Of a DNA stretch of 64,000 nucleotides, positions 750 through 47,887 are shown one piece after another. The DNA comes from Azolla caroliniana. Lineage: Eukaryota; Plantae; Polypodiophyta. The notes beneath the pieces are model-generated. The model did no database searches, was not told where the DNA came from, and saw only the letters and a program-made list of their open reading frames with translations. The position numbers and the translations under genes are program-made. Location: assembly GCA_043228905.1 (NCBI GenBank), contig JBHGNT010000004.1:24552001-24616000 (forward strand). The letters are read 5' to 3'. Position 1 is the stretch's first letter, and the number at the start of each line of letters is the position of its first letter.

Positions 750-1210
750 TGTCACGGACACACTGAGCGCGGACTAGGATGGAACACGGATGATGGGGCT
801 ACGAGCGACAGATGAACTTGGAGCTAGATGTGATGAGGCTAGGAACTCTAAACGTTATGAGCAACATGGCGGCATGCAAACAGAAATAAAGATCAAGGAC
901 ACAAAGACGAGGCGAAACGAGAATACTAGATTGATGTGTCAATGATTGGTGTTGAATCCCTTGAAAGGGACCAAGGATGTTACAAGTATTTATACAATTT
1001 ACGAGATTGAATATCTCTAGAATATACTCGAGAAATATCTCGAGAATATACTAATGACTAGAATATTCTCGAATGTACTATACACTAGACTCTACAATAT
1101 ATACAAGTTCACAATCGAATGTGGACAGTTCACAAGAGTTTTCATATGGTTAACACAACACAATGTATCGTGTGTGTTAAAAGTTAGAGGTTCGAGTCTA
1201 GACTGTGACA
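750..1210 (-). mobile_element. 3' LTR of a Ty3/gypsy element (461 bp) with adjacent PPT; rest of element lost after ~1300
   Basis: Inverted termini TGTCAC (750) ... GTGACA (1210); immediately followed by ttatcccccctctta, a minus-strand polypurine tract. Confidence 0.75.
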
Positions 1211-3348: not shown

Positions 3349-3644
3349 GATAACAAAAGATATATATTATGTTAAGGGAATATACAATAGTGGCTAGGAG
3401 GCTTAAGCCTGGCGTTGAACCGATTTGGTTCGAAATAATGCCTTGTGCCTCCTTTTATAGTGTTCTCAAGAGTACTCCTGAAGTTTCTAGAATGTTCCAG
3501 AGAAATCTGGAATATACATCAATTTTCTATAGTAAAACCTAAATGAAAAATAATATTCTTCGTATCATAACATATAGTCTAATGGTCAAGAGCTCGACCC
3601 ATGTAACATAAAGTCATGGGTTCTAGTCTTGCCATATCATGACA
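2585..3644 (-). repeat. Chromovirus 3' LTR with internal ~100-bp duplication, TAGTACTA sub-repeats, (GA)n tract and nested LINE fragment
   Basis: tgtcaggagcagtactaag at 2585 and again ~2686; catgaca ends at 3644 next to the PPT; the same LTR end recurs at 9583 and 44895. Confidence 0.8.
2800..3310 (-). mobile_element. 5'-truncated RTE/RTEX-like LINE 3' fragment with (CTAATT)n tail inserted in the LTR (GA)n tract
   Basis: C-terminal motif VEDECHLLFTC; homology by eye to 9455-9540; (AATTAG)n on + strand at ~2800-2825; flanked by gagag and (GA)n at 3310-3342. Confidence 0.8.
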
Positions 3645-3711: not shown

Positions 3712-6700
3712 TTAACAATGGAAATCTTCAAGAAGAGCACAAGAATTGGTCACATTCTCTATTGGTTCCCAAGTATGCTCGTTGGGACTATATCCTAGCC
3801 AATCGACTAAATAGTAGAGCTTGTTGCGAACAATCTTGGAATCGAGGATGGCGGCAACCTCGTACTCATGTCCATCTTCAAGCTCGATCGGGAGTGGAGG
3901 TTGTTTAATATGACCTAGGATGGTGTTGTCTTGATAGGGTTCGAGGAGAAAACTATGAAACACCGGATGTATCCGAAGTTGTGGAGGTAGATCAAAACGA
4001 AAAGCAACATCATTAATTTTTCCGATAATACGGAAAGGACCTAATCGCCGGTAATCCAACTTCTCGCATGGGCGAGTAGTCTTGATGTGTCATCGTAGTA
4101 GCCACGCCCGATCTCCAATGTCAAAACTGGATGGAAGCCGATGACGATCCGCGTAAACCTTGTGTGTTTGTTGAGCTTGTTGTAGATGAGTAGATAAATC
4201 CACTTGTATCTTACGTAGCCGCTCCAAACGATCCTTTGCACAAGGATTTGTAGGTAACTCTAGGGTTTCAAATACACACCACCAGGGGTGATAGCCTGTG
4301 TAAGAATAAAATGGTGTCACCTTTGTCGATGAGTGGACAGAGTTATTATATGCAAATTCGGTGAAGTGGAGAATATTCGCCCAGTCATCTTGATGATAGC
4401 TTAAAAAGCACCGAAGATACTGCTCCAGCATTTGATTTGTTCATTCTGGTTGGCCGTCTATTTGCGGGTGGTAGTCGGAGGAGAGGTTACAAGTGACCTT
4501 AAGCATTTTAAAGAGGTGCTTCCAGAACTTCGAGACGAACTGGGGTCCACGGTCGCTAATGATACTATCGGGAAGGCCATGATGCCAACATATTTCACGC
4601 ATGACAATTTCGGTGGTTTCTTCACTGGAGATTTCCTTAGTACATGGCAGGAAATGGGCCATCTTCGTATATCGATCTACTACTATTAAGATCGCATCGA
4701 ATCCCTTAGAGACTGGAAGATCTGTGATGAAATCTAGGGCAATGGATTGCCATGGCTTGCTTGGAATTGGTAATGGTTCTAATAAACCATATGGATGATG
4801 CCTTGGCATTTTTGCTCTGCAACATGTATCACAAGTCTGAACTAAATCTTCGACAAATTGTCGCATATGGGGCCACTAGAAGGATCGTTGTACTAAATCT
4901 AGTGTTTTAGTACTACCAAAATGCCCAGCTGTATATGTGTCATGAAAGTTTTGGACTACTTGAAGGTGACAAGTACCATTAGGAACATACAAGAGTTTCG
5001 TAAAGAATAGTAATCCATCACGACATTCAAATTGTTGATAATCCGTACTGTTAGGAAACAGGTCCCTCCGGATGGGAAGTGAGAAGAATAGTACTTATGA
5101 GCAAACTCGGCCGAGGCCGAAACCAGATGAGAAGTACCCGGCAAGAGCCGGATGGTGAAGACCCGGTGAGAACCAGATGAAGAGTACCCGACAACGGAAG
5201 ACCCGTTGAGAACCGGATGACAAGTGCTCGGCAAGAGCCGGATGATGCAGGCTCGATGAGGAGTGCTCACCGGATGAAGGGACATATTCATAAATATGTT
5301 TCCTGAGAGTCCATCATGGCTATATTTGTAAATAGCCGAAAAGTCATATTAGTATAAATATGACTTAGGGCAAACTCTTCTTGTGTGTTGTTGTCATTCT
5401 TGTTGGCGCTAGATCAGATAGCGCGTAATAGTGTACAGAGAGAGAGAGAGAGAGAGAGAGAGGAAGAGGTCGTTGCCTCTGTTGTAACTGCCGCCTGTGG
5501 CGAAGATCGAGAGTGTGAGGTCGTTGCCTCCGTGACCTCACTGTTGTAATCATTGTGATATAGTGATAGTTTGGAGTCTGTGGACTCCCGTGGTTTTTCC
5601 CTCTCAGGGTTTTCCACGTTAAACATCATGTGTACTCTTCTCTCCTTTGTGTCGTGTTTTTTTTAATCCCGGTTTTCTGTGTTTGATTCTCAGCTCGGTT
5701 GTGGCCAAACAGTGTTCATCGGAGCGTGTAGTTCCTGTCACGTACCTGGTTGTTGCAACTGTGAACAAGATGCTCGAGAGGGATCAATTTGTGCTAGAAT
5801 GGCTTGGGCGAAAACATCTGTAATCAAGTCCTCACGTATGGTATCGATAACATGGGAATCCAAGGGCATACCGAAGATTTGCGTTGCTTGTAGTCATGCC
5901 AGTCCCAAGATTACTTGCTTTTGGTTGTCGAAAGCCAGCTCGCTAGGACATAGTGTTAGATACGAACGCCATGATAATGCATCTACCTTCCCTTGTTGCT
6001 TCCTCGGACGATATGTAATTTTGAAGTCGAAACGAGTGAAGAATTGGGCCCACCGAGCTTGATGTCGATTTAACACACGAGCATTCTAAAAGTAGGCAAG
6101 GTTTTTGTGATCATTGAATACGACGACTTGATGAGAAGACCCCTCTAGAAAATGCCTCCATTGCGTAAAAGAGTCCACTATTGCTAATAGCTCCTTATCA
6201 TGAATTTCATAGTTGATTTCTGTGGGTGTCAAACTTGCGTGAATGGAAAGCCACTGGATGTAGCTTCTCATCATCACCTTGTTGAGACAGAATGCTACCT
6301 AAGGCGAAATCCGACGCGTCTGCTTCAATGATGAATGGTTTCTCTGGATCAACATGAGCTAAAATAGGAGCTGATGTAAATGCCTTCTTAAGACTCTCAA
6401 AAGCAATGTCCGCTTCTTCAGACCAAACGAACGATTTTCCCTTCTTGGTAAGTTGTGTGAGAGGCAGAACAAGCTTTGAGTAATCCTGTATGAACTTGCG
6501 GTAAAAATTGGCAAAGCCTAAAAAGCTTTGCACATCTCGCAACGAACGCGGAGTCTGCCACACTACCACTGTTTTGACCTTAGCTGGATCCATGGAGATG
6601 CCTTCCGAGGAAATGACATAGCCCAAAAATTCTACCTAGTTGCTCCCGAAACTACATTTTTCCAGTTTTGCATAAAGACCATGTTCTCAAAGTTGTTTTA

Positions 6701-6896: not shown

Positions 6897-8408
6897 TATC
6901 GTGAAGATCCGTCACTACGCGCGGATCGTGAGGCGGAACCGCTGAGGTTCTGGACCGGAAGGATTCAAAGTCGGTACAAGCTTTTCGCGCAAGCTTTAGC
7001 GAGAAAGTACTTAAGATAGATTGGGAAAGAGAGAAGTTGAGATTCAACGATTGAGAGAGATTAATTGAACTTTTATCTTTAGATTTAAGAAACAAGTTAC
7101 ACGATCAATTTGATAACGAATTTCTTCTTCTTAATTTCATAACAAAAAAAAACGTGTTTTTTCTCCTCCCCCTTCCTTCTTTTATAGATGCTCTCATGCA
7201 TATGATGCATGTGAGGGTACAAGACATGCATAAAATGCATGCTTGCCATTTGGCGCTTATGTATTACATGTGGTGCATGATAACCATGTCACTCATTTTA
7301 GCTCTCATGTATGAGAATTTACACGTAAAAGTACAATGATAGAAATATAAATTCAACTAGATGGCATGGCTTAATGGTAAGCCAATTGACGCATAACTCG
7401 GAGGTGCAAGGTTTGAATCCTTACTTGCCCTCCTTGTATATGTATATATGTATATATATTTATATATTTATTTATCTAGTCACCGGACGCCGGTTCGTCG
7501 GTTACCGGTGCCTCGCCGGATGCCGCCGCCTCGCCGTTGCCGGATGCCGCCGGATCACTGGCTCCATTGCCGGTCCGGTTTTGGTTGGCCAAAACCGTTT
7601 ACGAGTAGCTAGCCCACCTCCACTCTTAGTTCAAGTTACCTTGAACTCTCTATGCTCCACACATAGACACAAAGATAATATCTTTTGCTCTACCTTATAT
7701 ATGATGAGAGCCGTATTTGTCGTGCCTATGTGGGATATCTCACAATTTTCTCTTTTCCTTTCACAAACTTTATACCCTCATATCTTGACATTTAGTTGTC
7801 CGTTTCTCGTGTAATAAAGTGCATTCGAAACCTCCATCATTTTGTACTTAGATATTAAATTTATTTAAAATGTTATCTTCACAATTATTGTATTATGTGA
7901 TTCATACTCGATTTTGTACGTTTTATGGGATTTTCACACTATTGCCGACAATCTTCACGACATCCACCCCCACCAAACCGCACGTCCTCCGGTACGTGCC
8001 AAGAAGAGAGAAAGTGAGATTTCGGCTACAGTGACCAATTAGATTCCTCCATGTCTTTATTTACATCCGCCCTATTATGTTCATCGTCGAGGTAATCGAG
8101 GTCAGGATCCTTGTCTTGTCTTTTCTTGAATATCTTTACTCTTTTTCCCGCAATGGGTACGGCCAACCTTGATCCGTCTAGTTCCGCAAGGGGGTATGTG
8201 GCATTATCGTTGGCACTTGTCACCACATACGGCCCGAACCATCTTCTTGTGAACTTCCTTGTTGTACTGTGTTGATTGTCAAGGGTGCTGTCGTAAACCA
8301 AAACCCAATCCCCTTCTTCAATCTTCTTGGGACGAAGTCGATGCCTGTTGTCGAACCGAACTTTGTTCTTTACTCAGGCTGCCTCCATCATCTTTCGCGC
8401 TTTTTCTA
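6897..8408 (-). mobile_element. 3' end of a Trp-primed-group gypsy element: 3' LTR (6897-7962), PPT and integrase C-terminus
   Basis: 12-bp inverted termini t(a)tcgtgaagat...atcttcacgaca; PPT ggtttggtgggggtgga; ORF 8026-8301 VYDSTL...KFTRRWFGPYVV (GPY/F motif). Confidence 0.85.
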
Positions 8409-15955: not shown

Positions 15956-16188
15956 AAACTTTGTAAATTTGATTGATTTTGTTTTGGAACTTTCTATATA
16001 TTAGATCTGATTTGATCTAATATGTTGTTAATGCTACTTTACAAAGGTTTGAAAAGTGAATTCTATTTATAAATTTAGAATTTATTTTTAGTAAATATAT
16101 ATCTTTAGTTTTTGGGATCCAAAATTTTGTGATTGATTTGATTTGGTATTGCACTAGATTTGTTATTGGTATGTAGCCAAAGAAAAAA

Positions 16189-19005: not shown

Positions 19006-19351
19006 ATATTGAGAAAGAGACGTTTGCAGTCAATACAAAAATGCAAATTTAAAAGGTGACAAAGACACCTACACATTTAGTGAGAGAATTTAGTGGTGCC
19101 AATGTGCATGTGTCCAAATCAAATTTAGGTTTGTGAAGGAATGACATTACGTAGTGAACCAAATCCTTAGAAGAAATGAGTAAGTTTAATGAAAATTTAG
19201 TGAACGCTCTACAAAAGACCCCCACACAAAATGAATGAATTAAGTGTTTTGCTTCGTTCATTTATTGGTAATCTAACATTATTCACGAAACATTCATCGA
19301 TTATTCATACAAAGGATCCGCAATCTAGCCACTCAGCCAAATTCACGAGGG

Positions 19352-19870
19352 CTCACTCCAACTCCTAACTCAAGATCTCCTCAAACTTTTGCATAGCCTT
19401 TGCGGAGAGCATCGAGAGAACCTTGATGCCCGTCCTCTCCTGGCCATGCGAGAGGAAGAGGATGACCTCCTTGGGGTAATAGGCGGGACCAGTGTGGACG
19501 GGCTCGCCCCACTCGAAGTCGGACGTGTGGAAGGAAAGCCTGGACCACTGGGAGATGATGAGGCTGGTGTGGGGAATGATGAGGCGGGTGGTGGATGGCT
19601 AGGGGGCTAGAGTCACCTCGAAGAAGTCGATGGCGGAGCGCATGTAGTTGTCGGTCACGAGGGTGATGGCGTCTTGGACGTGCTTCACGGCATTCGACAA
19701 CGGCCTCGCTCTCAGCAGCCCGGATTCCGTGTGTGCGAAAGTGTGGATGATGGCATTGCCCATGAAGCCGCGTGGCAGCGGGGGCGCAAACCTCGTGCGG
19801 CCATCCACCGTGATGAGGAGCTTCATCTTTTGCTCATCCTTCATTCCCATGGCCTCGCTGCGCGCCTTCA
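19352..19870 (-). pseudogene. BAHD acyltransferase (ASFT/HHT-like) 3' fragment, pseudogene 1
   Basis: KARSEAMGMKDEQKMKLLITVDGRTRFAPPLPRGFMGN; frame disruption ~19600; DFGWG mutated to DFEWG; 3' flank homologous to 60070-60340. Confidence 0.9.
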
Positions 19871-20770: not shown

Positions 20771-21854
20771 TTGTGGAATATATATATGTGTGTATGTATG
20801 TATGTATAAATATATATATAATATGTAATTTATTCTTTTGTCTTTGGTATGTATATATGCATTTGTATGTAATTGTGTGTACAATAATATATGTGTGTAA
20901 TATGTAATATAGAAAATATGTTTGTAAGATTGTGTACATATACATATATGTAATATGCAAATTTTATGTATGTATTATGTATATATGTATGTCAATATAT
21001 ATGGCTGATTCAAATGTATATGTAGTATGTAATGTATTTATGTAGGTGTATGTATATATTTATATATGGTAAAACATATTTGTACATATATTTATGTTTA
21101 GTAAGTATGCATGTATAAATGGGTGTAATGTATGTATAAACATATCCATGGATGTAATGTTTGAATGTAGGTATATATGCATGCATGCATGTGTATGTAT
21201 GTATGTATGTATGTATGTATGCTAGCTACTCCAAATTTCACTATTTAATGTTTTCATATCAAATAGTACACTGGCGAGAGCCAAGAAATGGGATAGAGTT
21301 TGATCCTACAATAGTTGCTTTTACTAATATATAACCTTTTCTCACTTTCAATATGAATTCTTCTAAGAAGTGTAGAGTTTGATCCTAGAAGAGTTTCTTT
21401 TAATAATATATAACCTTTTCTCACTTTAAATATGAATTCTTCTAAGAAGTGTAGAGTTTGATCCTAGAAGAGTTGCTTTTAATAATATATAACCTTTTTT
21501 CGCTTTGAATATTGAGAAAGAGACGTTTGCAGTCAATACAAAAATGCAAATTTAAAAGGTGACAAAGACACCTACACATTTAGTGAGAGAATTTAGTGGT
21601 GCCAATGTGCATGTGTCCAAATCAAATTTAGGTTTGTGAAGGAATGACATTACGTAGTGAACCAAATCCTTAGAAGAAATGAGTAAGTTTAATGAAAATT
21701 TAGTGAACGCTCTACAAAAGACCCCCACACAAAATGAATGAATTAAGTGTTTTGCTTCGTTCATTTATTGGTAATCTAACATTATTCACGAAACATTCAT
21801 CGATTATTAATACAAAGGATCCGCAATCTAGCCACTCAGCCGAATTTACGAGGG

Positions 21855-23098
21855 CTCACTACAACTCCTGACTCAAGATCTCCTCAAAATTTTGCATAGC
21901 CTTTGCGGAGAGCATCGAGAGAACCTTGATGCCCGTCCTCTCCTGGCCATGCGAGAGGAAGAGGATGACCGCCTTGGGGTAATAGGCGGGACCGGTGTGG
22001 ACGGGTTCGCCCCACCCGAAGTCGGATGTGTGGAGGGAAAGCCTGGACCACTAGGAGATGATGAGGCTGGTGTGGGGAATGATGAGGGGAGTGGTGGACG
22101 GCAAGGGGGCTGGAGTCACCTCGAAGAAGTCGGTGGCGGAGCGCATGTAGTTGTCGGTCACGAGGGCGATGGCGTCCTGGACGTGCTTCACGGCATTCGA
22201 CAGCGGCCTCACTCACGAAGTCCATGGCAGCTACGCCGTCCAACATGCAATGGTTCAGCTGCAGGCCTAAAACGACCCCACCGCTGTCGTGAAGAAAACC
22301 GTTCCTTAGCGCAATCGGTGCATAGCGCGCGTGAACCGGCTCTTCACGCGTGCATGCCCTTTAATGTATATAATAGGGAATTAGGTACATAGGCATATCC
22401 GGGGGTAGTTAGATTCGGTAGGTAGGAAGTAAATGAGGGAGACTTCTCCCCTCTGAAGCTATAAAAGAAAGGGAGACGCGGGGGAAAAGGGGATCGCGCA
22501 TTGAGGAGGACGAAGTGCTGTCGAACCGTAACCGAACGCTTCTCCTCTGTTCATTCTCCATCGCTCTTCTCTGCAGGATTTCGGGAGGCTCGCGCTGCTT
22601 CGAGGAACGCCCGTGTGCTTCCGGCAGCACCTCCATCCTATCCCCTTTCGTGCGCAGACGAACAGGCATCGGCATCTGTTCGCCGGCCTAGTCGGTTGTA
22701 ACCGCTCGCGTGCTCTGTTGTTTTGTGTCATTTGTTAATATACAAACATTCGTGTCTCTCTGTCTCTGTGTCCATTCGTGTTTTCTGCGTTGACGGGTCG
22801 TGTCCCTGTGTTTCTTTGCTCATACGTTACGGGTCGTCTCTCTCTTTCTCTTTCCCCTCCTATCACCTGCTCTTCGGTTCAAGACCCCGGTGGTCCCGCC
22901 TCGTTTCTCCACGCATGCGCGTAGCAACGCGACACCGCATTGGAAGTTGGTGACCTACGTAGGCAGACATGCAGATAGGTAATTCAGAACAAAAGGAAAT
23001 CAGACAGGTAGCTGCTACCATAGCATATAGCATATTGCATAGCAGAGGAAGGATGGAAGGAAGGAAGGAAGGGGAAGTTACTTGGACGGCCATAAGGG
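21855..23098 (-). pseudogene. BAHD acyltransferase pseudogene 2: end of exon 1, intron and internally deleted exon 2, split by a solo LTR
   Basis: PLMAVQ|gtaactt intron ...gtag|VTNFQCG[LTR]GVVLGLQLNHCMLDGVAAMDFVS, then a jump to RPLSNAV...DFGWG; intron resembles 61249-61327. Confidence 0.9.
22285..22934 (+). mobile_element. Solo LTR (650 bp) with 4-bp TSD CCGC inside BAHD pseudogene exon 2
   Basis: TGTCG...CGACA termini; CCGC at 22281-22284 and 22935-22938; removing the LTR and one CCGC restores colinearity with the intact gene. Confidence 0.9.
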
Positions 23099-28800: not shown

Positions 28801-28890
28801 CGATAGCCTTGCCACACGGTTCAAGGAATTATTTCAACGGCATGTACCGTTCAAAGAGCTCCACGTTGCCTATTACTCGGCATGTCGCGT

Positions 28891-31800
28891 TGTCGTGCCT
28901 TTCGGCGCCAGATCGTTGCGTGAGTCGGGTGGGAACCGCTGGGGTTTTGGACTAGGAAGAGGAGAGTTTTAAGGCTAATAAGAATATAAATATGTTGTAA
29001 GAAAGAGTTATAGCAAACTCGTGAATCCCACGAGTGTATAGATTAATCAATATGAATATAAGAATATAAACTTCGGTTGAAAGAGAATGATATAGAATTC
29101 TCGTGAATCCCACGAGTATAGTTTATTAATTGGTGTTTTTTAGAAACATATCCAGTTTCCAAATATTTTTCACACACAATTACATTGTGCTCCCCATCCT
29201 TATGTAGTGATGAGGAAGTCTTAGTAATCCATGCTTTTTCTCTAACTATAGACCCCATGCTTTTCCTATAGATAGACTATATGCTTTATCTAAAGTGATC
29301 ATGCTTTTTCTAACTTGTGCGTTTTTTATCATGCACGCTAGATGTGTATGTGTAGCTTTTTCTTTTGTTATGCGTTTTTCTAATGTTTATCCTAGCGTGA
29401 ATTTACCTTTCTATGTGGGACATCTATGCTTTAACACTAATGAAATGCTAGTGTAATGGTAAGACATTACATTATTAACATGGAGATGCAAGGTTCGAAT
29501 CTTGCCCTAAGCATGTTCCATTTATTTTGCTATTTTCTTCTATTTCTTCATTTTTTATTGAATCTAATACTATATACGTTTTTCACGTAGTGTACAAAAT
29601 ACACTATGACACTCACCCCCTCCAAACCCGCACATCCTCCGGTATGTGCCGAAGTTGTTGGTGTTTGTTAGTCTCCTCCGTCCGGTCTCTACCCGATTGG
29701 TTTCGTTGCCGGCTCGTAGTACCCTCGACTTCTCTTGTTATGTTGACTTTGTCTCTCCATTTGGAGCACATCCATTCTTTCACCCGAACCATTGTCGACA
29801 TCCGATCCACCATAGTCTTCGTTCGCTTTTTGCATGGCCCGCTTGGTCCTTGTCATCCGCGGTAGTATCTTTTCTTGCCCTCTTTCTTTTCTTCATCAAT
29901 CTCGACGTCTTTTCGGATTTTCGGTTTAGTCGGATTAGCTTACTTCCGATTCGGTCTCGTCGGATCGTCTTTCGTTTAGTTCGGCTTCCTTTCCGATTTG
30001 TATTCGGTCGATCCGGACTCGGTTGATCGGTTTTTACCGATTCAGTGCTCTTTCGGGTCGGTTTCTTTTCTTTTCTTTTCGTCCGGATTTGCTTTCTTTT
30101 CTTCGTTTTCACCTGCCTTGTCCGGTTCGACTTTCGGCACTTCTTTCCGTTGTTCGCTACGTAGGTCCTCCGATATGTGCTCGTTGTTTGGTCCTCGTGT
30201 GGTTGTAATGCATGCTTCTTTTCTCGCCGTAGCGCGTGCTTCTTTATTCGCCATAACACGCGTTTCTTTATTCGCCGTAGAGCGTGCTCTGTATTACGCG
30301 CTTCTCCCGTCGTAGACCCGACCTCCGCATTGTCGCACTTTCTTTTAGATTGGAATTTCGGATGGATCATTTTCCATCCGAACCGACTTCCGACTTTACC
30401 TTCCTCGCCGCCATCTCCCGTCTCTCCGGTCTCACGTTGGTTCTCGGACACAACCGCCGAAGTCTCTAGATATTGTTGGCATGAATCCTCGGTATTACCT
30501 TCTTTCGTAGTTTCACCCTTAGCATTCTTCTCGGCTATCTCTTCATCGTATTCGTCGGCTTCGACATTCGTTTTCTCTCCGCCACCTTCCGTCTCTTCGG
30601 TCTCACGTTGCCTTTCGATCGCAACCGCCGGAGTCTCTGGAATCAGTGGTGGGGAAGTCTCGATATGGCAATCCGCCATTGATTCGTCCATAGCCACCTC
30701 CGATTCGATTTCGTCTTTTGTGGCTACCTCCTTAATCACATCCGCTTCACACTCTTTATCTGCATCAATTATGCAAACATCTATTATGCTTACCCCTTTT
30801 TGACCCGATGTCTCGGACACTTGTATCCCGAAATTTCCTTCTACACTTGAATTATCGGCCTTATCCTTCGCCATCGTTCTTTCACAAGACGAGTGGGTGT
30901 CTTGTTCCACTCTTTCTCCCGTGGTACCATCATGTTGTATTTCGGCCTTCATATTGGCTTCATCGTTTTTCCTCAATCGACCATCCTTCATGGGCCATGT
31001 CGTTGTTGACGAGATTCTCAGCTTCCTTTCATCATGTCTTCGGCATACCCTTTCGACTTTAGCCCAATCCTCGGTAAGACCATTCGTACCGTCATCATCT
31101 TCGAGTTCGATCCCAATGTCCATCCTTTCTTTCCGATCGATCGATCTTACGAACATTAAGACTTTATCTTCTCCCACCAATCGTTGTTCCCGCTCCGAGA
31201 GTCGAGCAAGACGATGCTCGAACTCTAGGAATGCTTGTGTTGCACTTCGGTGGGTCTTCTCCGATGCCACCCATTCGTCGAATTTTCGCCGATCTTGTCC
31301 CTTTGATCTCTTGTAATCATATGACTCTCGTAAAGCTTCTTCGAATGACCCCCATGTCGAGTTTTGTTGCCGTATCTTGTGGATTCTCTCTTGTAGCTCA
31401 TCCGTGGCCACCCGATTGAAGGATGTCACTTGCAATCCTTCCGGTATCCCACATCGTATCATCTCCGCCTTGTAGTCACGTAGATAGCGTGACACATCGT
31501 TTCCGTTGAATTGTCCGTTTCGTTGTACGAGCCGCTTTACTGCCCCCGTGATCTCCGACATCACTCGTTGTTCTTGTAGCATCCGCTCGAACATCATCAT
31601 CATCATGTTCATCGCCTCTTGTTGATTCTCCATCTCCTTGCCACCCGCCTTCGCGTCGGGTTCACCAACTGTGTCGTGCCTTTCGGCGCCAGATCGTTGC
31701 GTGAGTCGGGTGGGAACCGCTGGGGTTTTGGACTAGGAAGAGGAGAGTTTTAAGGCTAATAAGAATATAAATATGTTGTAAGAAAGAGTTATAGCAAACT

Positions 31801-32392
31801 CGTGAATCCCACGAGTGTATAGATTAATCAATATGAATATAAGAATATAAACTTCGGTTGAAAGAGAATGATATAGAATTCTCGTGAATCCCACGAGTAT
31901 AGTTTATTAATTGGTGTTTTTTAGAAACATATCCAGTTTCCAAATATTTTTCACACACAATTACATTGTGCTCCCCATCCTTATGTAGTGATGAGGAAGT
32001 CTTAGTAATCCATGCTTTTTCTCTAACTATAGACCCCATGCTTTTCCTATAGATAGACTATATGCTTTATCTAAAGTGATCATGCTTTTTCTAACTTGTG
32101 CGTTTTTTATCATGCACGCTAGATGTGTATGTGTAGCTTTTTCTTTTGTTATGCGTTTTTCTAATGTTTATCCTAGCGTGAATTTACCTTTCTATGTGGG
32201 ACATCTATGCTTTAACACTAATGAAATGCTAGTGTAATGGTAAGACATTACATTATTAACATGGAGATGCAAGGTTCGAATCTTGCCCTATGCATGTTCC
32301 ATTTATTTTGCTATTTTCTTCTATTTCTTCATTTTTTATTGAATCTAATACTATATACGTTTTTCACGTAGTGTACAAAATACACTATGACA
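28891..32392 (-). mobile_element. Complete, very young non-autonomous gag-only LTR retrotransposon (TR-GAG-like), 4-bp TSD GCGT
   Basis: 721-bp LTRs 28891-29611 and 31672-32392 with one mismatch seen; PBS tggtgaacccgacg complementary to tRNA-Trp 3' end; PPT ggagggggtgag; GCGT at 28887-28890 and 32393-32396. Confidence 0.95.
29780..31633 (-). CDS. gag: Gag-derived protein (617 aa) with acidic linker and long Lys/Arg-rich tail; no PR, RT or IN
   Basis: N-terminal ~200 aa clearly homologous to ORF 47888 (RNGQFNG.DVSRYLRDYKAEM.RCGI.EGLQV.SFNRVATD); uninterrupted. Confidence 0.88.
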   Translation of the reverse strand: MENQQEAMNMMMMMFERMLQEQRVMSEITGAVKRLVQRNGQFNGNDVSRYLRDYKAEMIRCGIPEGLQVTSFNRVATDELQERIHKIRQQNSTWGSFEEALRESYDYKRSKGQDRRKFDEWVASEKTHRSATQAFLEFEHRLARLSEREQRLVGEDKVLMFVRSIDRKERMDIGIELEDDDGTNGLTEDWAKVERVCRRHDERKLRISSTTTWPMKDGRLRKNDEANMKAEIQHDGTTGERVEQDTHSSCERTMAKDKADNSSVEGNFGIQVSETSGQKGVSIIDVCIIDADKECEADVIKEVATKDEIESEVAMDESMADCHIETSPPLIPETPAVAIERQRETEETEGGGEKTNVEADEYDEEIAEKNAKGETTKEGNTEDSCQQYLETSAVVSENQRETGETGDGGEEGKVGSRFGWKMIHPKFQSKRKCDNAEVGSTTGEARNTEHALRRIKKRVLWRIKKHALRREKKHALQPHEDQTTSTYRRTYVANNGKKCRKSNRTRQVKTKKRKQIRTKRKEKKPTRKSTESVKTDQPSPDRPNTNRKGSRTKRKTIRRDRIGSKLIRLNRKSEKTSRLMKKRKRARKDTTADDKDQAGHAKSERRLWWIGCRQWFG

Positions 32393-32396
32393 GCGT

Positions 32397-33650
32397 TCAT
32401 ATTAGAGAACTTGGAATTTGAGGGTTTGTTAGTTTACTTCTATTATTCTACTTCTTACTCAAGATATTTTAGGGCTTGGATTCCTTCAACAATGACTTCT
32501 TCGGCATCTCGGTGGTAGTCAACTCGGTAGCCGGTGGCGTAAGGGAGGTTGTAGTGGCACGAGAGCTACTCCGAATCGAGGCAACATAGCCTTTGAAAGT
32601 AGTGAGACTCGGAGCCCACTGGACTCACCTTCGCCGGTTTATTTTAGCACCTTTGATTGATTTATAACCGATTATTGTAATAACCACCGAAATCGTGGTA
32701 TCAAGCCTAGCAATTGTAGAAAGAAAAGAAAAAACCCTCATTTATATCAAAACTTATGTATATTTCCCCATGTCTTTGACTTAATCTCCCACTTCCTCAC
32801 TACTTTTGTCTCCCCAATCCAAGGCCTCGGTGGTCCCGTTCAAGCGACACACGCACGCGAAAATGTTGCGACATTGGTGACCCCAACGTGAAATCCAAGG
32901 CCTCGGTGGTCCCGTTCAAGCGACACACGCATGTGAAAATGTTGCGACATTGGTGACCCCGACGTGAAAGAGCGATAGGGGAGGACGGACACAGATGAAG
33001 AAGATTGCATGGAGATGATGTTGAAGACGATGGTGGATTTCACGAGGGCAAGGCACAACGAAGAAGGAAAAAAAAACAAAAAAACAAAGGTTGACAACCT
33101 TTGGCCCCGCCACATCACTTTTTTCTTTGGCACATGCCGGAGGATGTGTGGTTTGGTGGGGGTGGATGTCATAGTGTGGCGTGTGCACTGTGAGAAAAAG
33201 CGAGGTTCCACGCACATCGCATGAAATAATGTAGAAAAAACTATGAAAGAAAACAAATAATAAGTAACTTGTAGTAGCTTTGTGGTTAAGGCTTAGAAGT
33301 ATATGTAGAGAGGTATAGAGTGTGAGTCTCTCTTCCTACAAATCAAGGAGGATTTTGCTCCCCTTCCATTTTTGTGATAAAAAAATAAAACAATAAAAGC
33401 ATGCAATGTAAAAATAGACGCCTCTTTCCTATATAAGAGGGGAGGAATAGGACTTATTATGGGGTCACCCATTTTGGCTTAGGGGTGTACCACTAGGGTT
33501 TCATCTTCTTCTCCTCTTCTTCTAGGGTTAGGGTTTTGTAGCCTCCCTTTCTCCTTATCCCTTTCTCATTCATCTTTTCTTCTTGGATTAGGGTTTTATA
33601 GCCTCCCTTTCTCCTTATCCCTTTCTCTTTCATCTTTTCTTCCAGCAACG
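32397..33650 (+). mobile_element. TRIM-like remnant: LTR 3' half, duplicated Trp PBS, ~200-bp internal region, PPT, LTR 5' part
   Basis: ...gttgcgaca-t-tggtgacccc(a/g)acgtg at 32875 and 32951 (76-bp duplication); PPT ggtttggtgggggtgga then TGTCAT at 33167. Confidence 0.65.
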
Positions 33651-34424
33651 GGTTAGAATTTCTAGGCTTGACATCACGATTAAGGTAGTTTTTACAACAA
33701 TCATTATGAAATAATCAAAGACTAAAATAATCTAGCGAAGGTGAGTCTAGTGGGCTCCGTGCTCCACTACTTCCGACGGCTATGTTGCCTTGATTCGGAG
33801 TAGCCCTCTTGCCACGACAACCTCCCTTCTGCAATTGGCCACTGAGTTGACCACCACCGAGATACCAAAAATGCCACTGTTTAAGAAATCCAAACCCTAA
33901 AATCTCGAGTAAGAAGTATAATAGGAGCAAAACTCACAAACCCTAAAATCATACATCCTCTAATATGTTGAGGAGAAAAGAAGAAAAGTAGAACCTCTCA
34001 AACCCTAACCCTAGAAAAAAAAGGAGGAGAAAGGGATAAGGAGAAAGGGAGGCTACAAAACCCTAACCCAAGAAGAATATGAGAAGATGAAAACCTATTG
34101 GTACACCCCTAAGGCAAAATGGGCGACCTTCGAATAAGCCTTTTTCGTCCCCTCTTATAGAGGAAAGAGGAGTCTATTTTTACATTGCATGCTTTTATTT
34201 ATTTATTTATTTATCACAAAAATTGAAGGGGAGCATAATCCTCCTTTATTTGTAGGGAGAGAGACTCGAACTATACACCTCTCTACATATACTTCTAAGC
34301 CTTAACAACTAAGCTACTACAAGTTACTTATTGTTTATTGTTTTTTATAGTTTTTTCTACATTATTTTATATGATGTGCGTGGAACCTAGCTTTTTCTCA
34401 CAGTGCACATGCCACACCACGACA
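33167..34424. repeat. Fold-back: two oppositely oriented LTR copies forming ~430-bp inverted arms
   Basis: 33167-33600 is the reverse complement of ~33990-34424 (e.g. tgtgcactgtgagaaaaag / ctttttctcacagtgcaca; ggggtgtacc / ggtacacccc). Confidence 0.85.
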
Positions 34425-34993
34425 ATGTGGTCCACGTGAAACGTGAACTTCACCCGAAAATGGAAGGGGAGCAAAATCTTCCTGTATTTGTAGGGAGAGA
34501 GACTCGAACTGTACACCTCTCTACATATACTTCTAAGCCTCAACAACTAAGCTACTACAAGTTACTTATTGTTTATTTCATACAATGTGCGTGGAACCTC
34601 GCTTTTTCTCACAGTGCACATGCCACACCACGATAGCGTGGTCCACGTGAAACGTGAACTTCACCCGAAAATGGAAGGGGATTTTACATTATTTCATACG
34701 ATGTGCGTGGAACCTCGCTTTTTCTCACAGTGCACATGCCACACCATGACAGGGTGGTCCACGTGAAACATGAACTTCACCCGAAAATGGAAGGGGAGCA
34801 AAATCCTCCTTTATTTGTAGGGAGGGAGACTCGAACTGTACACCTCTCTACATATACTTCTAAGCCTTAACAACTAAGCTACTACAAGTTACTTATTGTT
34901 TATTGTTTTTTATAGTTTTTTCGACATTATTTCATATGATGTGTGTGGACCCTCGCTTTTTCTCACAATGCACACGCCACACCATGACAGCGT
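34425..34993. repeat. Three additional tandem copies of the LTR-end/host junction
   Basis: ccacacca(c/t)ga(c/t)a-gcgt-ggtccacgtgaaacgtgaac ends at 34424, 34635, 34751 and 34989. Confidence 0.85.
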
Positions 34994-36908
34994 GGTCCAC
35001 ATGAAACGTGAATCTTCACCCGGAACTTGGTTATGCTAAAAATAAGACCCAGGGCCTCACGTTCTGTTGTTGAGTAGTTGCGTTCGGCCTAGGAAAGACG
35101 ACGACTTGCGTAGAATATTGGTCGGAACCAACAGGGTTTAGACAATTGCTGCATCAAGACGCTGCGGATCACAATATCTAAGGCATCCATGCACGAATAC
35201 ATGGAACGACTTGTCCCAACGTGGTAGTTGCAGTATAGGGGCATGGGAAATGAGTATTTTGAGGGTGTTAAAGGCCTCTTGTCCGGTTGCAGTCTAGTGG
35301 AATGGCATACGGTGGATGGTTGCATGGAGAGGGCTTGCAAAATCAGCAAGGTAGCGCAAGACCCTACTGTGCCAACACACTTGTCCAAGTAAGTACATGA
35401 GTCCCTTTGTGTTGGTCGGAGGTGGGGCCGCAAGGATTGCATGGACTTTACTTGGGTCGATTGTGATGTCCTACTAGGTAATGATCTGCCCAACCAACAT
35501 CCGCTGGATACCGCAAACACACACTTCAAGGGGATAAGGCGGAACCGGCTGTTGCGATAATGTTGGAGGCATTTATCGAGATGTGCAAGGTGCTCGCCTT
35601 TGGAACCGAAGACCGCGAAGTCATCTAGGAATACCTGCATAAACCCAGGTATGTATTCCTTGAAGATCTCCATTATAATACGTTAAAACGTAGCGGGAAC
35701 AATCTTGAGCCCAAACATCATGACCACGATGACATACCCCCCCCCCCCCAATCTATGACAAAGGTTGTTTTTTCTTTGTCCTCTGGGGCCATGCGAACTT
35801 GGTTATAGCAGCTCAATCCGTCCCAAAATTGTAGAGTTCATGGCCCGCAACTGTGTCGAGAATGGAGTTCGTGTAGGGGAGCAGGAAAGCATCGGTGATC
35901 GTATTTGCATTCAACTTCCTATAATCGACACAGACTCAGATTTTCCCATTCTTCTTCATGACGACTACGATTGGGCTATGCCATGTGGCTATCTTAGCCG
36001 GCCGAATGAACCCCGCACCGAGAAGTTTGTTGATTTCTTCCTTGACCTTTTCGGCGTAATTAGGGTTCATTCTATATTGGCGTTGCTGGATGGGGTTTGC
36101 ATCGCCTTTCAAAGTAATTTTGTGGTGATAAAATTGTGGGTTGAGCCTTGGCATGTAAGTGTGCTACTATATGAAAACATCCTTGTACGACCGTAATAGA
36201 CACTCCACTTGCATTCAAACGGAATCGGGAAGATGCTTTACTACTAGGACTATGCGGGGTGTGCCCTCCGTTCCTATGTTCAGCTCCTCTAGCTCAGTTG
36301 CTTGAACCCTTTGTGATAGTGTTGAGGTCACATTCCAGGTTTGTGGAGGCCTGGTCAAGCTCGGCTAATGCTTGCAGTGAAGGAGAGGGTAACCATTCCG
36401 CATTTAGGGCGGACACAACAGTTGACTCAAACAGTTTTGCATGTTGGTCAAGAATGTGGAGTACGTACTATCTTGAACAATGGTACAAAATCGGAAATTT
36501 CCTCTTGATACACGTCGACGTCCTCTTCTGTCATGCCGTCAAGCATGTTGACTGTTTCGCCACACACTGTAGTGACTGCCTGCGGTGGTGTAGGAGTTGC
36601 GGTCGTGTTGACGCGGGTTTTATGGCCATTTTAGCGGATCGTGAGCCGATTATTCGGCCAGTCCTGCTTGATCTGGGTTGCGCGAAGCCATGGTCGTCCA
36701 AGGAGGAGAGGATATCGACCGTTATCGACCACTACGGAGATTTGGAATGTTTTGTGCCAACGGCTTCACTACACTAGTATCTGCCATGCGGAGATGCAAT
36801 GGGCAATGGGCCCAATCCGAGATGCTGAGGTCACAGCAAGTGGCCTCGCTGATCAGGTTGACTCACGACCTGTCGTCGATGAGAACCCCTTGCACATGTT
36901 GGCCGTTT

Positions 36909-39900
36909 TGATAGTAAGAAAAGGCCAAATATGTTATTTCTTACTATTTACGCATAAGTATAAAAACTAATAGAAATGAGGGTTTCTTGTGCCCCCCCAA
37001 AAAGTTGTTGTGTGTTCTTTTTCCCTCTGTCTGTGTGCTGTTCGACATTTTCTCTACAGGTAAGGCAAAACAGCAGCTCGTCCGTCTCCATCGTTCTTCT
37101 CCAACAGTGGTATCAGAGCTTGGACCTCGTGAGACTGTGTGTGGCAGCAAGCATCCGACCTTTCTGCGTTTCCCCCCTCTGCACATGCTATTTTTTCAAG
37201 ACCTCGATAGAGGTAATATCTAGTACGCTTCTCGTCTGAACATTTCCTTTTTTTGTGTGCCAATCTTTTGGGAAAAAAGAGTAGACCTTTGGTGAAAGCT
37301 AGAAACAGAGAAGACTCACTGTTTCTAGCATACAAAGTGAGAAGTTACAAATAAAAGAACTTGTATTTGGTTTTCCCGATGCTTGCTCACTTGATGTCAC
37401 TTGATGTGAGTTTTTCTTTTGACGTTGAAGTTACGTCCTAGTTGCAGTCCTTTTGCCTTGGCTGATATAAGAGAGAGGTGTTGTCCTCAATCGAACACAA
37501 ATACCTACCCTAGAACACGGTTTGAGTCTAGGTAGTGAGTAGTGTCTCAACTATTGTTAGTTGCTTATATTTGGGATTGACCAAGTTTATTTACCTAGCA
37601 TCCAAATGGCTGCCTCTGAAATGTCTGAGGTTTCAAGTACCTCACGTGGTGGTTCGTTCAATTCCCATAGAAATCACTCTATGGGTGGAAAAGACCACCT
37701 TGAGATCCGTAAATTTGACGGATCCAACTTTGCCCTGTGGAAGAATCAGATGAGAGATGTCCTGATTCAAAGAAGGCAATTAAGAGCTATAAGTGGTGAA
37801 GCCAAGAGACCCCAGGGCATGACCAAGGACGATTGGGAAGAGCTCGATCTCTTGGCAATGTCTACCATAAGACTGCACCTGGCTGACAACGTGTATTTCA
37901 CGGTCTTGGACTGTGACTCAGCTGAAAAGCTATGGACTAAACTATCCAGTACATACGAAAAAGAGACCGCATCAAACAAAGTTTATCTAATGAGAAAACT
38001 TTATGATCTTCGAATGAAGGACAATGACAGTGTCGCTTCTCATTTGAATGATTTTGATGCATTATGGTCACAATTACTGGCTCAGAAAATGATTTTTGAT
38101 GATGAGTTGAAATGTGTATTTTTGTTATGCACTTTGCCTAGCTCATGGAACACTTTTTGCACCGCTATTAGTGCAAGTGCACCAAATGGGAAATTAGTCT
38201 ATAATGACATATGTGGAGCTCTTTTGGGTGAAGAAATTCGTAGAAAATCTGTGATTGCATCACACAATGGAGATGCATATAATGTTTCTGATGTTGGTCC
38301 TCGCAAGAACCAACAACGTGGTAGGAGCCAAACAAGAAATAGTAGTGGAAATGATAGAGGTAGAAGCAAATCTAGGAAGAAAAATATGGAATGTTATTAC
38401 TGTCATAAAAAGGGACACCTTAAGAAAGATTGTTATGCCCTAAAAAATAAGGAGAAAGATAATGCTAGAGGGCATGGTAGACAATCTAGTGGTCCTTCTT
38501 CCTCGGTGGAAATAGAGGAAGTAAATGCAACATGTGATGAGACAGACATCTTGGTCCTAGATGATGTTAGCACACATGCTGGGGTGAACACGGTTTTTTC
38601 CCCATCACATACGTGGTTGTTGGACTCCGGTGCATCGTTTCATGTGACTCCACATAGAGAGTGGTTCACATGTTATGAAGCCAAGTCACTTGGGAAAGTT
38701 CGACTTGGAGACTCACATCAGTGTGATGTGATTGGCATTGGAAATATCTCAATGCATTTTAGTGATGGTTCTCATTTGACCATTAAAGATGTACGCCACG
38801 TTCCTCAACTAACTCGTAGTTTGATTTCCGTTGGTCAGCTTGATGACAACGGATATAAGGTGATGTTTGCCTCTCAATCCTTTCGTATAACGAAAGGAAA
38901 TATTATTGTCGCGAAAGGGAACAAAGTTGGTTCCCTCTACCCTTTATTTGTTAATCAAAAGGAACACTTGTTGGCTGTCACAGAACAGCCAATGACGAGC
39001 ATTTGGCATGGTCGTTTAGGCCACATGTCAAGAAATGGCATGGAAATCCTATCTCGTTATGGCCACTTACCTAAGTTGTCATTCTCTGATTTTGCCTTAT
39101 GTGAGCATTGTCAGCATGGTAAGCAAACAAGAAGTGCACATAAGACCAGTGTTAACTCATCCACTAAACCATTGGATCTTGTCCACACGGATGTTTGTGG
39201 ACCTATGCCCACAAGATCTTTGGGCGGTGCACTATATTTTGTTACTTTCATTGATGATGCCACTAGGAAAGTTTGGGCTTATCCAATTAAGGGAAAGGAT
39301 GATGTATACCCCACTTTCAGAAAATGGCTTAGTTCGGTTGAGCTGGAAAAGGACATAAAGCTTAAGGCCTTACGTTCAGACAATGGAGGTGAGTATACCT
39401 CTCATGAATTTGATGACTTTTGCAAGTCTAGAGGCATTCGGAGAGAGTTTACAGCTCCCTACACCCCTGTCCAAAATGGTGTGGCTGAGAGGATGAACAG
39501 AACCATCCAGGACAGAGTTCTCTATGCTACACCATGCAAACCTCTCGCAAGGTTTTTGGGCAGAAGCTGTTTTAACAGCAGTCCATGTGATTAACCTATC
39601 ACCGAACACAACCATAGGCCTAAAAGTGGCACAAGAGTTGTGGACAGGCAAGACACCTCATTATGCTCATCTTAGAGTTTTTGGATGCGAAGCATATGTA
39701 CACATTCCAAAAACCTTAAGAAAGAAATTAGACTATAAATGCAGAAAATGTATATTTCTTGGTTGCGGAATTGACGGGCAGTTTGGATATCGCTTATGGG
39801 ATCCTGACACACGTACTGTGGTCAGAAGTAGTGATGTTGTTTTTTATGAGAACAAAATGCATAAACAGACCGTGAAGGAGGTAGAAGTGAGGAAGGTTGC

Positions 39901-44894: not shown

Positions 44895-44977
44895 TGTCAG
44901 GAACAATACTAAGACAGAGAGGGAATTAGTACTAAAAGATGCGAATTAGTACTAAGAGAGAGAAAAGAGTGTAGAAC

Positions 44978-45020
<43 letters not shown>
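44895..45020. repeat. Chromovirus LTR-end fragment plus (GA)n, the empty site of the intact LINE
   Basis: tgtcaggaacaatactaag...gtagaactcac(GA)n gagcggaaaag, colinear with 9583.. and 14298.. Confidence 0.85.
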
Positions 45021-45023
<3 letters not shown>

Positions 45024-45024
45024 C

Positions 45025-47143: not shown

Positions 47144-47887
47144 TGTCGTAGTGTATTCCACACACAACGTGAAAACCATAAAATAATATATCCGATTTTA
47201 GATACATATAAATAAATAAATAATATATCAAAATATTTATCACGTGCATAGGGCAGGATTCGAACCCTACACCTCCACGTAGATAAACCTCAACGTTACC
47301 ATTGTAATAACTTATCTTTAGTGTTATACATATAGATTTAATACGTATAAGACCTTTATTTACACATACCTTTATTAAAAGGTAAAAATCATGTATTCTT
47401 TAGGGTGTGAATATTTTATTTACACGTGATATTAAAAGTGACTCATGCACATCTAGCGTGCATGAGCCCTATACTTAGGAAATGACAAAGCATCACATGC
47501 ACATTTAGTGTGCATGGACACTTTTGGTGAAAAAGCATGAAGCCATGCTTAGCCTCTTCCATCTTTATATAAGGAGGAGAGAAATATGTATAAGGTTGTT
47601 GATTAATATAGAAGGATTGATCAATCTAATATATTCGTGGGATTCACGAATTTTGCCATCTAAATTACTCTTATAATCTAAATATTGTTTTAAATACACT
47701 AAACTCGTGGGATTCACGAGATTGCTACCTTACTTCTCTTTATACCTATTCTTTACTAGCCTTATTTGTAATTTTCTTTCTCCTAGTCCAAAACCTCGGC
47801 GGTTCCCACCTGACTCACGCAACGATCCAGAGCCGAAAGGCACGATACAGTTGGTGAACCCGACGTGAAAACCCGGGGTGCAAGGAG

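What the first reader, a model, noticed from the sequence alone, without database searches (positions are those of the whole stretch)
29447..29530. tRNA-like Pol III (A-box/B-box) modules inside LTRs of about six different gypsy families
Seen in sequence: tRNA-spaced A and B boxes occur within otherwise unrelated LTRs. TAGTGTAATGG (29449) ... GGTTCGAATC (29492) is followed by TTTT and is present in both LTRs of the gag-only element. TGGCTTAATGG (7367) ... cataac ... gaggt ... GGTTTGAATCC (7410). TAGTCTAATGG (3575) ... GGTTCTAGTC (3619). GGTTCGAGTC (1189). A perfect GGTTCGAATCC on the minus strand at 47256-47266. TAGCTTAGTTG...GTTCGAGTC on the minus strand at ~34263-34320, mirrored at 33272-33330. 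In five of the six families the module is antisense to the element, mostly within ~120 bp of the U3 end. Established: Cassandra TRIMs carry 5S rDNA Pol III promoters in their LTRs, and TFIIIC-bound B-boxes act as insulators. Inference: both chromoviral and non-chromoviral gypsy lineages here may keep tRNA-derived Pol III units as antisense promoters, silencing barriers or tRNA-fragment decoys. I do not recall this being described as a shared LTR feature.
Basis: partly seen in the sequence, partly recalled or inferred. Interest (0 to 1): 0.82.

Follow-up and report, generated by a model that had tools for sequence, protein, structure and literature searches.

The report
tRNA promoters inside full-size retrotransposon LTRs
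Many full-size jumping genes of a seed-free plant (probably a fern) carry, mostly back to front in their end-repeats, the two promoter boxes of a tRNA gene at tRNA spacing while the rest of the tRNA has decayed; these boxes likely dock the tRNA-gene transcription machinery, which would help keep the element's own promoter open.

Summary
Real and far above chance. Strict A+B boxes 31-34 nt apart occur 7 times in the window (0.07 expected), all in LTRs. The six families reduce to two gypsy lineages: four Phygy-like, two Tcn1-like; one (1189) has only a B box. In related metagenome elements the module is in 15 of 33 Phygy-like LTR groups (24 hits vs 0.65 shuffled), mostly antisense in U3, sometimes 2-3 per LTR. 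Across 22 distinct modules the A box, AGGT (44-47), B box and spacing are kept; anticodon arm and flanks sit at background identity and no tRNA stem covaries. So it is a family-wide, selected DNA motif, not a tRNA, a primer complement or a sporadic SINE. Best reading: a TFIIIC/TFIIIB docking site acting in cis on the LTR's Pol II promoter (barrier or open chromatin); binding, transcription and function are untested. Closest known: Helenus TRIMs (short, non-coding, sense in the consensus sequences seen). My literature searches found no report for autonomous plant elements. Other scan notes report LTR-borne tRNA-like promoters in fungal and animal genomes; a look-up by sequence found none.

The parts
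29449..29502 (+). tRNA-type promoter module (A box 29449-29459, B box 29492-29502, 32 nt apart) in U3 of the 3' LTR of the gag-only Phygy-like element; antisense to the element; B box 120 nt from the LTR start
29525..29528 (+). TTTT 22 nt after the B box, possible Pol III terminator
32230..32283 (+). same module in the 5' LTR of the gag-only element
28891..29611 (-). 3' LTR of the gag-only element (721 nt, 99.9% identical to the 5' LTR); GCGT at 28887-28890 is one copy of a 4-nt NCGN-type target duplication
   Evidence: NCGN rule from PMC6317226 passages
31672..32392 (-). 5' LTR of the gag-only element; GCGT at 32393-32396
31650..31667 (-). primer-binding site (assignment to tRNA-Trp is recalled, not from a call)
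29780..31732 (-). 650-codon stop-to-stop frame, gag-like (no Pfam hit; its start matches the gag of the 47144 element at 79% DNA identity)
29612..29650 (-). polypurine tract and pre-PPT motif shared by the Phygy-like elements at 7960 and 33157
29332..29351 (-). second conserved LTR box between module and Pol II promoter (90% identical between the gag-only and 47144 LTRs); likely a Pol II regulatory site
47256..47309 (-). module (A box 1 mismatch, perfect B box) antisense in U3 of the 5' LTR (47144-47847, +) of a gag-pol Phygy-like element (PBS 47852-47869; RT and RNase H in 49807-51906)
7367..7420 (+). module antisense in a 1064-nt Phygy-like LTR (6897-7960, -) sitting in a Tcn1-like RT; the only stretch that aligns with the gag-only LTR
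3575..3629 (+). module antisense at the very start of the 3' LTR (~3311-3644, -) of a Tcn1-like chromovirus; B box ends 15 nt from the LTR terminus
3718..3864 (-). chromodomain (PF00385, E 1e-13) of that element, aromatic-cage residues present by eye
1189..1199 (+). B box (no convincing A box) ending 10 nt from the start of a second Tcn1-like LTR (750-1209, -), which follows a PPT and a remnant resembling a chromodomain tail
34262..34316 (-). module in SENSE orientation in U3 of a Phygy-like LTR; local tandem copies at 34500-34554 and 34827-34881
33275..33330 (+). sense copy with broken B box in the same family's LTR (starts 33157), whose PBS (32950) and PPT are only ~200 nt apart

Best explanation
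These are tRNA-derived A- and B-box promoter modules fixed in the LTRs of many autonomous Phygy-like and some Tcn1-like gypsy retrotransposons, and they are likely kept by selection as DNA docking sites for TFIIIC and TFIIIB, which would act in cis as a barrier or open-chromatin anchor beside the LTR's own Pol II promoter. Shown: family-wide presence, tRNA spacing, conservation limited to the boxes and AGGT(44-47), loss of all stems, position mostly in outer U3 facing away from the TATA box, extra copies in some LTRs. Inferred from known Pol III biology: TFIIIC binds (high odds, ~0.85) and recruits TFIIIB to the AT-rich DNA upstream; any ~90-nt Pol III RNA would be a by-product. Inferred and untested: that the benefit is protection or activation of the Pol II promoter (~0.5 given binding). 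Origin: probably a few old tRNA-gene or SINE-head captures spread between lineages by LTR recombination.
For: Chance excluded (24 hits in 50.6 kb of LTR segments vs 0.65 shuffled; 8 hits, 4 distinct and all at threshold, in 265 kb of internal DNA). Mean pairwise identity over 22 non-redundant modules: A box 0.65, B box 0.78, positions 44-51 0.59 (G46 22 of 22, not part of the score), anticodon arm 0.34, flanks 0.30-0.36; 19 of 20 stem/register tests show no Watson-Crick excess (best: acceptor, p 0.02 uncorrected). With positions 56-57 unscored, the B-box CpG appears as CA (tolerated, by recalled consensus) in 10 and TG in 2 of 22 (p 0.04). In four public DNA runs the commonest letter repairs the window's own defects: G at 3624 (B box; 89-114 contigs per run, ~94-99% of depth) and G at 29486 (AGGT; 27-85 contigs, >99%). 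Upstream 40 nt are 76% AT vs 59% for LTRs. Both orientations and 2-3 copies per LTR occur (L037, L040, L075), as expected of a cis element. Product-independent barrier and insulator effects of TFIIIC/tDNAs are established in yeast and human (passages of PMC12409998, PMC4228148).
Against: No binding, transcript or reporter data. About half the LTR groups (16 of 33) lack even a relaxed match, so it is dispensable. A and B conservation is partly built into the search. Modules are related by descent (non-box identity up to 0.75 between groups), so 22 is not 22 independent events. TFIIIC alone needs only a B box (ETC sites, PMC12409998); keeping the A box, few internal T4 (1 vs 4.2 expected) and a first T4 at +22 to +29 in 9 of 22 point to real transcription, which may be the selected trait. 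Pol III complexes can also repress nearby Pol II promoters and block read-through (PMC4228148), and Pol II must cross the 3' LTR copy to finish the genomic RNA. No tDNA barrier is documented for plants in the review passages read (PMC9540200).
Confidence: 0.45

Rival explanations
1. The module is a working Pol III gene and its short RNA, or the act of transcription, is what is selected (antisense regulator of U3/PPT, small-RNA decoy or trigger).
For: A box and 32-33 nt spacing kept; AT-rich upstream; T4 nearly absent inside the module and first T4 at +22 to +29 in 9 of 22.
Against: No conserved RNA sequence or fold between the boxes; T4 within 60 nt in 14 of 22 vs 12 expected from local composition; in Tcn1-like LTRs the transcript would run off the LTR end into PPT or host DNA; CAA near the start in only 6 of 22; both orientations occur.
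Confidence: 0.2
2. Neutral relic: old SINE or tRNA insertions carried along by successful LTR families.
For: Absent from 16 of 33 groups; SINE capture is the origin proposed for Helenus (PMC10886601); some copies are broken (33275, L011, L033); Egag vs 47144 LTRs are only patchily more alike over the module (0.95, 0.70, 0.45, 0.75 in four 20-nt bins vs 0.66 overall).
Against: Boxes and exact spacing persist while the middle and flanks fall to background; the module is the only alignable stretch between two LTRs; CpG decay is one-sided; family majority letters are intact.
Confidence: 0.12
3. The Pol III complex damps the neighbouring Pol II promoter (tRNA-gene position effect), so the element limits itself.
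For: tgm silencing is listed among extra-transcriptional Pol III effects (PMC4228148 passages); modules lie about 100-300 nt from the TATA matches.
Against: The same paper reports such effects as modest genome-wide; the Tcn1-like family looks abundant in the runs laid (1858-4593 contigs each).
Confidence: 0.1
4. The antisense copy in U3 of the genomic RNA pairs with the primer tRNA and helps priming or strand transfer, like the Ty3 5'-3' bipartite PBS (PMC4974528 passages) or the tRNA-like stretch in HIV-1 U3-R (recalled; paper not held).
For: Mostly antisense (16 of 24 hits) and near the 3' end of the genomic RNA; the boxes are complementary to D and T loops of any tRNA.
Against: Module positions 59-73 match the primer's 3' end read from the PBS at only 3-8 of 15; all these Phygy-like elements share one PBS type yet their modules differ widely; sense copies exist; Tcn1 elements are reported to lack a tRNA PBS (PMC6317226); fixed spacing with free sequence is not what pairing selects.
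Confidence: 0.05
5. Landing pad: LTR-bound TFIIIB attracts Ty3-like integration of further elements.
For: Ty targeting to Pol III genes is established (PMC4228148 passage); two earlier scan notes report this in fungal genomes (unchecked).
Against: None of 12 element ends in the window lies within 100 nt of an A box (nearest 118-165 nt are the carriers' own LTR ends); Phygy-like elements follow an NCGN rule.
Confidence: 0.05

Closest known systems
Helenus TRIMs / TRIMp3 (Kojima 2024, PMC10886601; read parts 1-4 of 6 of the text, searched passages, and supplement passages)
   Same: tRNA-derived sequence inside both LTRs, conserved at A box (TRGCY..YGG) and B box (GGTTC), not a functional tRNA, not a primer; one plant case (Selaginella).
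   Different: Helenus is 311-1263 bp, non-coding, and sense in the consensus LTRs seen in the supplement, with Pol III proposed to make the genomic RNA. Here the module sits in 0.3-1.5 kb LTRs of gag-pol elements beside a TATA box, is mostly antisense, may be present 2-3 times, and even the four sense U3 copies meet T4 within 25-39 nt.
Cassandra and Ajax TRIMs (5S rRNA promoter in the LTR; as described in PMC10886601)
   Same: Pol III internal promoter captured in an LTR.
   Different: Type 1 (5S) promoter in short non-autonomous elements; here type 2 (tRNA) in autonomous elements.
tDNA and ETC-site barriers/insulators of yeast and human (passages of PMC12409998 and PMC4228148)
   Same: Proposed mode of action: product-independent effect of bound TFIIIC (with or without TFIIIB) on neighbouring chromatin.
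   Different: Host loci, shown experimentally; here carried on a mobile LTR in a plant, function untested, and the A box is kept unlike ETC sites.
tRNA-derived SINE heads (SINE2; general knowledge and PMC10886601 introduction)
   Same: Boxes kept, cloverleaf lost.
   Different: Modules are integral to LTR families and move by LTR replication; very diverse middles rather than one SINE family.
Phygy and Tcn1 gypsy clades (Neumann 2019, PMC6317226 passages; Novikova 2010, PMC2864245 passages)
   Same: NCGN 4-nt target duplication and no chromodomain hit (Phygy-like); chromodomain with aromatic cage (Tcn1-like).
   Different: Described from moss and Selaginella; Novikova found no Tcn1 in ferns by PCR. 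The passages read mention no tRNA-like LTR module.

Membership tests
Helenus / TRIMp3 | tRNA-like sequence with A and B boxes inside both LTRs | tested here: met
   29449 and 32230
Helenus / TRIMp3 | short (about 1 kb or less), non-coding TRIM | tested here: not met
   3.5-kb gag-only element, gag-pol element at 47144, pol-bearing loci; even the 33157 derivative has ~0.9-kb LTRs
Helenus / TRIMp3 | promoter oriented and placed to transcribe the element | tested here: not met
   16 of 24 hits antisense; sense U3 copies meet T4 within 25-39 nt
Helenus / TRIMp3 | PBS, PPT and target-site duplication | tested here: met
tRNA gene | cloverleaf detectable by ARAGORN or Rfam; stems pair | tested here: not met
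   0 genes in the window and in 47 of 80 loci scanned; no tRNA hit at E<=10 in the window or 9 loci; no stem covariation
Type 2 Pol III promoter | A box and B box at tRNA spacing | tested here: met
Type 2 Pol III promoter | AT-rich upstream region, CAA motif, T-run terminator (plant tRNA genes, PMC13578239 passage) | tested here: inconclusive
   AT 76% vs 59%; CAA 6 of 22; T4 within 60 nt 14 of 22 vs 12 expected
Type 2 Pol III promoter | TFIIIC/TFIIIB binding and Pol III transcription | not testable with these tools
   needs ChIP and small or nascent RNA data
SINE2 insertion | sporadic, copy-specific insertion | tested here: not met
   in both LTRs and across contigs of four runs
SINE2 insertion | 3' tail and own target-site duplication | not tested
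   none obvious in the flanks printed; no formal search
tDNA/ETC chromatin barrier | blocks heterochromatin spread in a B-box-dependent way | not testable with these tools
   needs reporter and chromatin assays
Phygy (non-chromovirus gypsy) | NCGN target preference, short element without chromodomain | tested here: met
   GCGT on both sides of the gag-only element; no Chromo domain listed for the 120 pol homologues shown
Phygy (non-chromovirus gypsy) | RT-RH-INT tree placement with reference Phygy elements | not testable with these tools
   no reference set on hand; hence 'Phygy-like'
Tcn1 chromovirus | chromodomain with aromatic cage after integrase | tested here: met
   (cage residues by eye); element at 750-1209 keeps only a tail-like remnant
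Tcn1 chromovirus | no tRNA PBS (self-priming) and tree placement | not tested
   5' ends of both elements are not in the window

The most novel reading that the evidence does not exclude
Autonomous gypsy retrotransposons of seed-free plants carry a portable tDNA-type chromatin barrier: captured tRNA promoters, swapped as cassettes between chromoviral and non-chromoviral LTRs and sometimes multiplied, recruit TFIIIC/TFIIIB at the outer edge of the LTR to shield the Pol II promoter from host silencing. It would be a Pol III-based anti-silencing device in a retrotransposon and a natural tDNA insulator in plants.
Probability: 0.3. Interest if true: 0.85.

Novelty: new variant of a known kind. Interest (0 to 1): 0.62.

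Why it matters
Pol III promoters in LTRs were known from miniature elements that use them to make their own RNA; the Helenus paper argues autonomous partners must rely on Pol II. Here autonomous elements of two distant gypsy lineages keep such promoters where they cannot make the genomic RNA, which points to a product-independent use of the Pol III machinery by a transposon. If bound, these abundant LTRs would scatter TFIIIC sites over a plant genome and give a direct test of whether tDNA-type barriers work in plants (natural pairs of sister families with and without the module exist, e.g. L046 vs L043).

Tried and rejected
No genome held for the window, so no genome-wide family set. ARAGORN and Rfam: no tRNA (Rfam hits were simple-repeat artefacts). 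Viral contigs: nothing by pattern or protein. Sequencing runs: no RNA holder listed; this says nothing on expression; X20, labelled RNA by guess, was flagged probably DNA. Summed contig depth is higher over the modules than beside them, but the tool states that contig depth cannot rank parts of a stretch, so I use only the letter tables (11 and 22 rows not shown). RT tree is the quick tree only, no reference elements, midpoint root; used only to show that module-bearing families lie in several clades. LTR grouping is imperfect: L037/L047 are joined by shared pieces; L046/L047, L036/L038 and L012/L017 are split though near-identical in RT; 5' anchors marked 'maybe' and segments capped at 1.1-1.5 kb may hold non-LTR DNA. 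tRNA isotype of origin could not be assigned. Search for the HIV/Ty3 analogy returned 0 papers; two papers were not held; PMC5911963 passages gave nothing. Rejected: functional tRNA, primer complement, sporadic SINE, landing pad, Helenus membership. Look-up of earlier findings by sequence: nothing.

Full report
Setting. The window is nested retrotransposon DNA of a seed-free land plant. The host acyltransferase's nearest named relatives are fern proteins (Adiantum, 71-73%) ahead of seed plants (up to 69%), with no moss, liverwort or lycophyte protein among the 120 of 899 hits listed; a fern is likely, a hornwort is not excluded, and an earlier scan note on this genome says 'likely from mosses' (unchecked). 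No assembly was available.

Observation. All quoted boxes are at the quoted places. A strict A box with a B box 31-34 nt downstream occurs 7 times, against 0.07 in shuffles, and all 7 lie in LTRs. ARAGORN and Rfam call no tRNA. The 1189 site has only a B box, the 33275 copy is broken, and the 7367 module is 551 nt into its LTR.

Which elements. Four carriers (28891-32392 gag-only, 47144 gag-pol, 6897-7960, 33157/34434) share a pre-PPT motif; three of them show one PBS type; the gag-only element is flanked by GCGT, matching the NCGN rule reported for Phygy (PMC6317226, passages). Named pol homologues are Riccia proteins at 50-65%. Two carriers (3311-3644, 750-1209) are Tcn1-like: the first has a chromodomain, the second a remnant like its tail. 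So six families are two distant lineages. A copia LTR and four other LTR-like stretches lack the module.

Is it family-wide? Contigs of four DNA runs were laid on two LTRs. Where the window copies deviate, the commonest letter is the tRNA-promoter letter: G at 3624 in the B box (89-114 contigs per run) and at 3612, and G at 29486 in AGGT (27-85 contigs); no other B-box change is among the rows shown (11 and 22 rows hidden). The modules are therefore not copy-specific insertions.

Relatives. A metagenome scan with a pol alignment kept the best 80 of 163 confirmed loci, 70 of them from one series of assemblies, so breadth across plants is narrow. With an untrained consensus score there are 24 hits in 50.6 kb of LTR segments (shuffles 0.65, max 3) and 8 hits, 4 distinct and all at threshold, in 265 kb of internal DNA. 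Among LTRs seen for at least 350 nt from their start (plus 5 from the window), 15 of 33 groups carry a strict module, 2 more only AGGT+B, and 16 none; the one long LTR from another source (L044) has none. Carriers fall in several clades of a quick RT tree, interleaved with non-carriers. Two inserted LTRs (L028, L072), Tcn1-like by a modest match of L028 to the 3311 LTR (72% over 64 columns), carry an antisense module within 40 nt of the start. By my reading of TATA matches (by eye where several or none matched), 15 distinct Phygy-like modules are antisense upstream of TATA, 4 sense upstream, 3 sense downstream and none antisense downstream: 18 of 22 point away from the Pol II promoter.

What is conserved. 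Over 22 non-redundant modules (of 31), identity is 0.65 in the A box, 0.78 in the B box, 0.59 at 44-51 (A44 19, G45 20, G46 22, T47 20 of 22; unscored positions), 0.34 in the anticodon arm and 0.30-0.36 in flanks. D, anticodon and T stems pair no better than partners taken from other modules; the acceptor stem is marginal (p 0.02, one of 20 tests). Between the 6897 and gag-only LTRs only the module aligns. Blind to positions 56-57, CG 9, CA 10, TG 2, CT 1 (p 0.04 for CA vs TG): deamination is accepted only on the side the recalled B-box consensus tolerates. This is the pattern of a protein-read DNA motif, not a folded RNA. Caveats: box scores are partly circular and modules are related.

Transcription signals. 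Upstream DNA is AT-rich (76% vs 59%). T4 lies inside 1 of 22 modules (4.2 expected); the first T4 is at +22 to +29 in 9 of 22, but 14 within 60 nt is near the 12 expected; CAA is seen in 6 of 22. A Pol III unit is plausible, a defined product is not.

Mechanism. TFIIIC binds B boxes tightly and A boxes weakly, and tDNAs and ETC sites act as TFIIIC-dependent barriers (PMC12409998, passages); Pol III complexes also phase nucleosomes, repress nearby Pol II promoters, block read-through and guide Ty integration (PMC4228148, passages). The module cannot make the genomic RNA here: most copies point outwards and sense U3 copies meet T4 within 25-39 nt. Outer-U3 position, either orientation, extra copies and neighbouring Pol II-type boxes fit a cis-regulatory cassette. 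I put 0.45 on a TFIIIC/TFIIIB-bound barrier or activator, 0.2 on the RNA itself, 0.12 on a neutral relic, 0.1 on self-damping. Primer pairing as in Ty3 (PMC4974528, passages) is unlikely: positions 59-73 match the primer end at 3-8 of 15. No element end in the window lies within 100 nt of an A box (12 ends), against a landing pad.

Known systems. Helenus TRIMs carry tRNA-derived LTR sequence with the same box conservation (PMC10886601, parts 1-4 of 6), but are short, non-coding and sense in the consensus LTRs I saw (supplement passages). The author states that 'not a few LTRs' in Repbase resemble part of a tRNA but analysed only TRIMs, so some autonomous cases may already sit unremarked in Repbase. 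It resembles Helenus in make-up but fails its size, coding and orientation features. Searches (open-access library only; listings and abstract starts) found no report of this in autonomous plant LTR elements; passages of PMC9540200, PMC13578239, PMC2864245 and bioRxiv 10.64898/2026.03.01.708851 (its supplements not seen) mention none. Earlier scan notes describe LTR-borne tRNA-like promoters in fungi and animals, one judged a passenger and two landing pads; they are unchecked leads.

Verdict. A real, previously unreported (as far as searched) variant of small-RNA-promoter LTRs, with good sequence evidence of selection on the boxes and no functional data. Interest 0.62.

Noticed in passing
L028:3970-4060, L072, L021, L033, L037, L043, L047; window 7235-7265: A block of CATGCA repeats with GCCA(A/C)(A/T)TGGC is shared by Tcn1-like and Phygy-like LTRs next to the module; it resembles RY plus G-box/ABRE-type Pol II sites (recalled). 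L028's LTR matches L040's over 179 columns at 65%, suggesting cassette exchange between lineages.
   Followed up: partly
window 6897-7960: LTR looks chimeric: its outer ~330 nt resemble module-free L012/L016/L017 LTRs, the rest resembles L021, L033, L037 and L047.
   Followed up: partly
window 32393-35100: Rearranged cluster of one LTR family: inverted copies, a PBS duplicated in 76-nt units (32816-32967), only ~200 nt between PBS and PPT, and tandem copies of LTR start plus host flank that triplicate the module.
   Followed up: partly
window 62249-62267 (-) and 58448-58458 (-): Lone B-box-like motifs outside LTRs, one with AGGT about 450 nt upstream of the acyltransferase gene; no A box.
   Followed up: no
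window 1150-1180: Self-complementary stretch (TTAACAC...GTGTTAA) just upstream of the lone B box in the first Tcn1-like LTR.
   Followed up: no
window 60373-61801 (-); fragments 19341-19869 and 21854-22360: BAHD acyltransferase gene (PF02458) like omega-hydroxypalmitate O-feruloyl transferase; nearest named hits Adiantum 71-73%, seed plants up to 69%; fragments lie in a 2.5-kb tandem duplication.
   Followed up: partly
window 8408-9699 / 43720-45019 and 14318-16223 / 44982-46863: hAT-like DNA transposon (DUF4371) in two copies 97.5% alike, one split at an AG microsatellite by a LINE (9784-14094, endonuclease + RT).
   Followed up: no
window 36908-42063: Copia element with 199-nt LTRs 99% identical and frameshifted pol; no module in its LTR.
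   Followed up: no
L075, L035, L033: AGGT+B box duplicated on its own (L075 at 288, L035 at 112) and an L033 module with about 11 nt deleted between the boxes.
   Followed up: no
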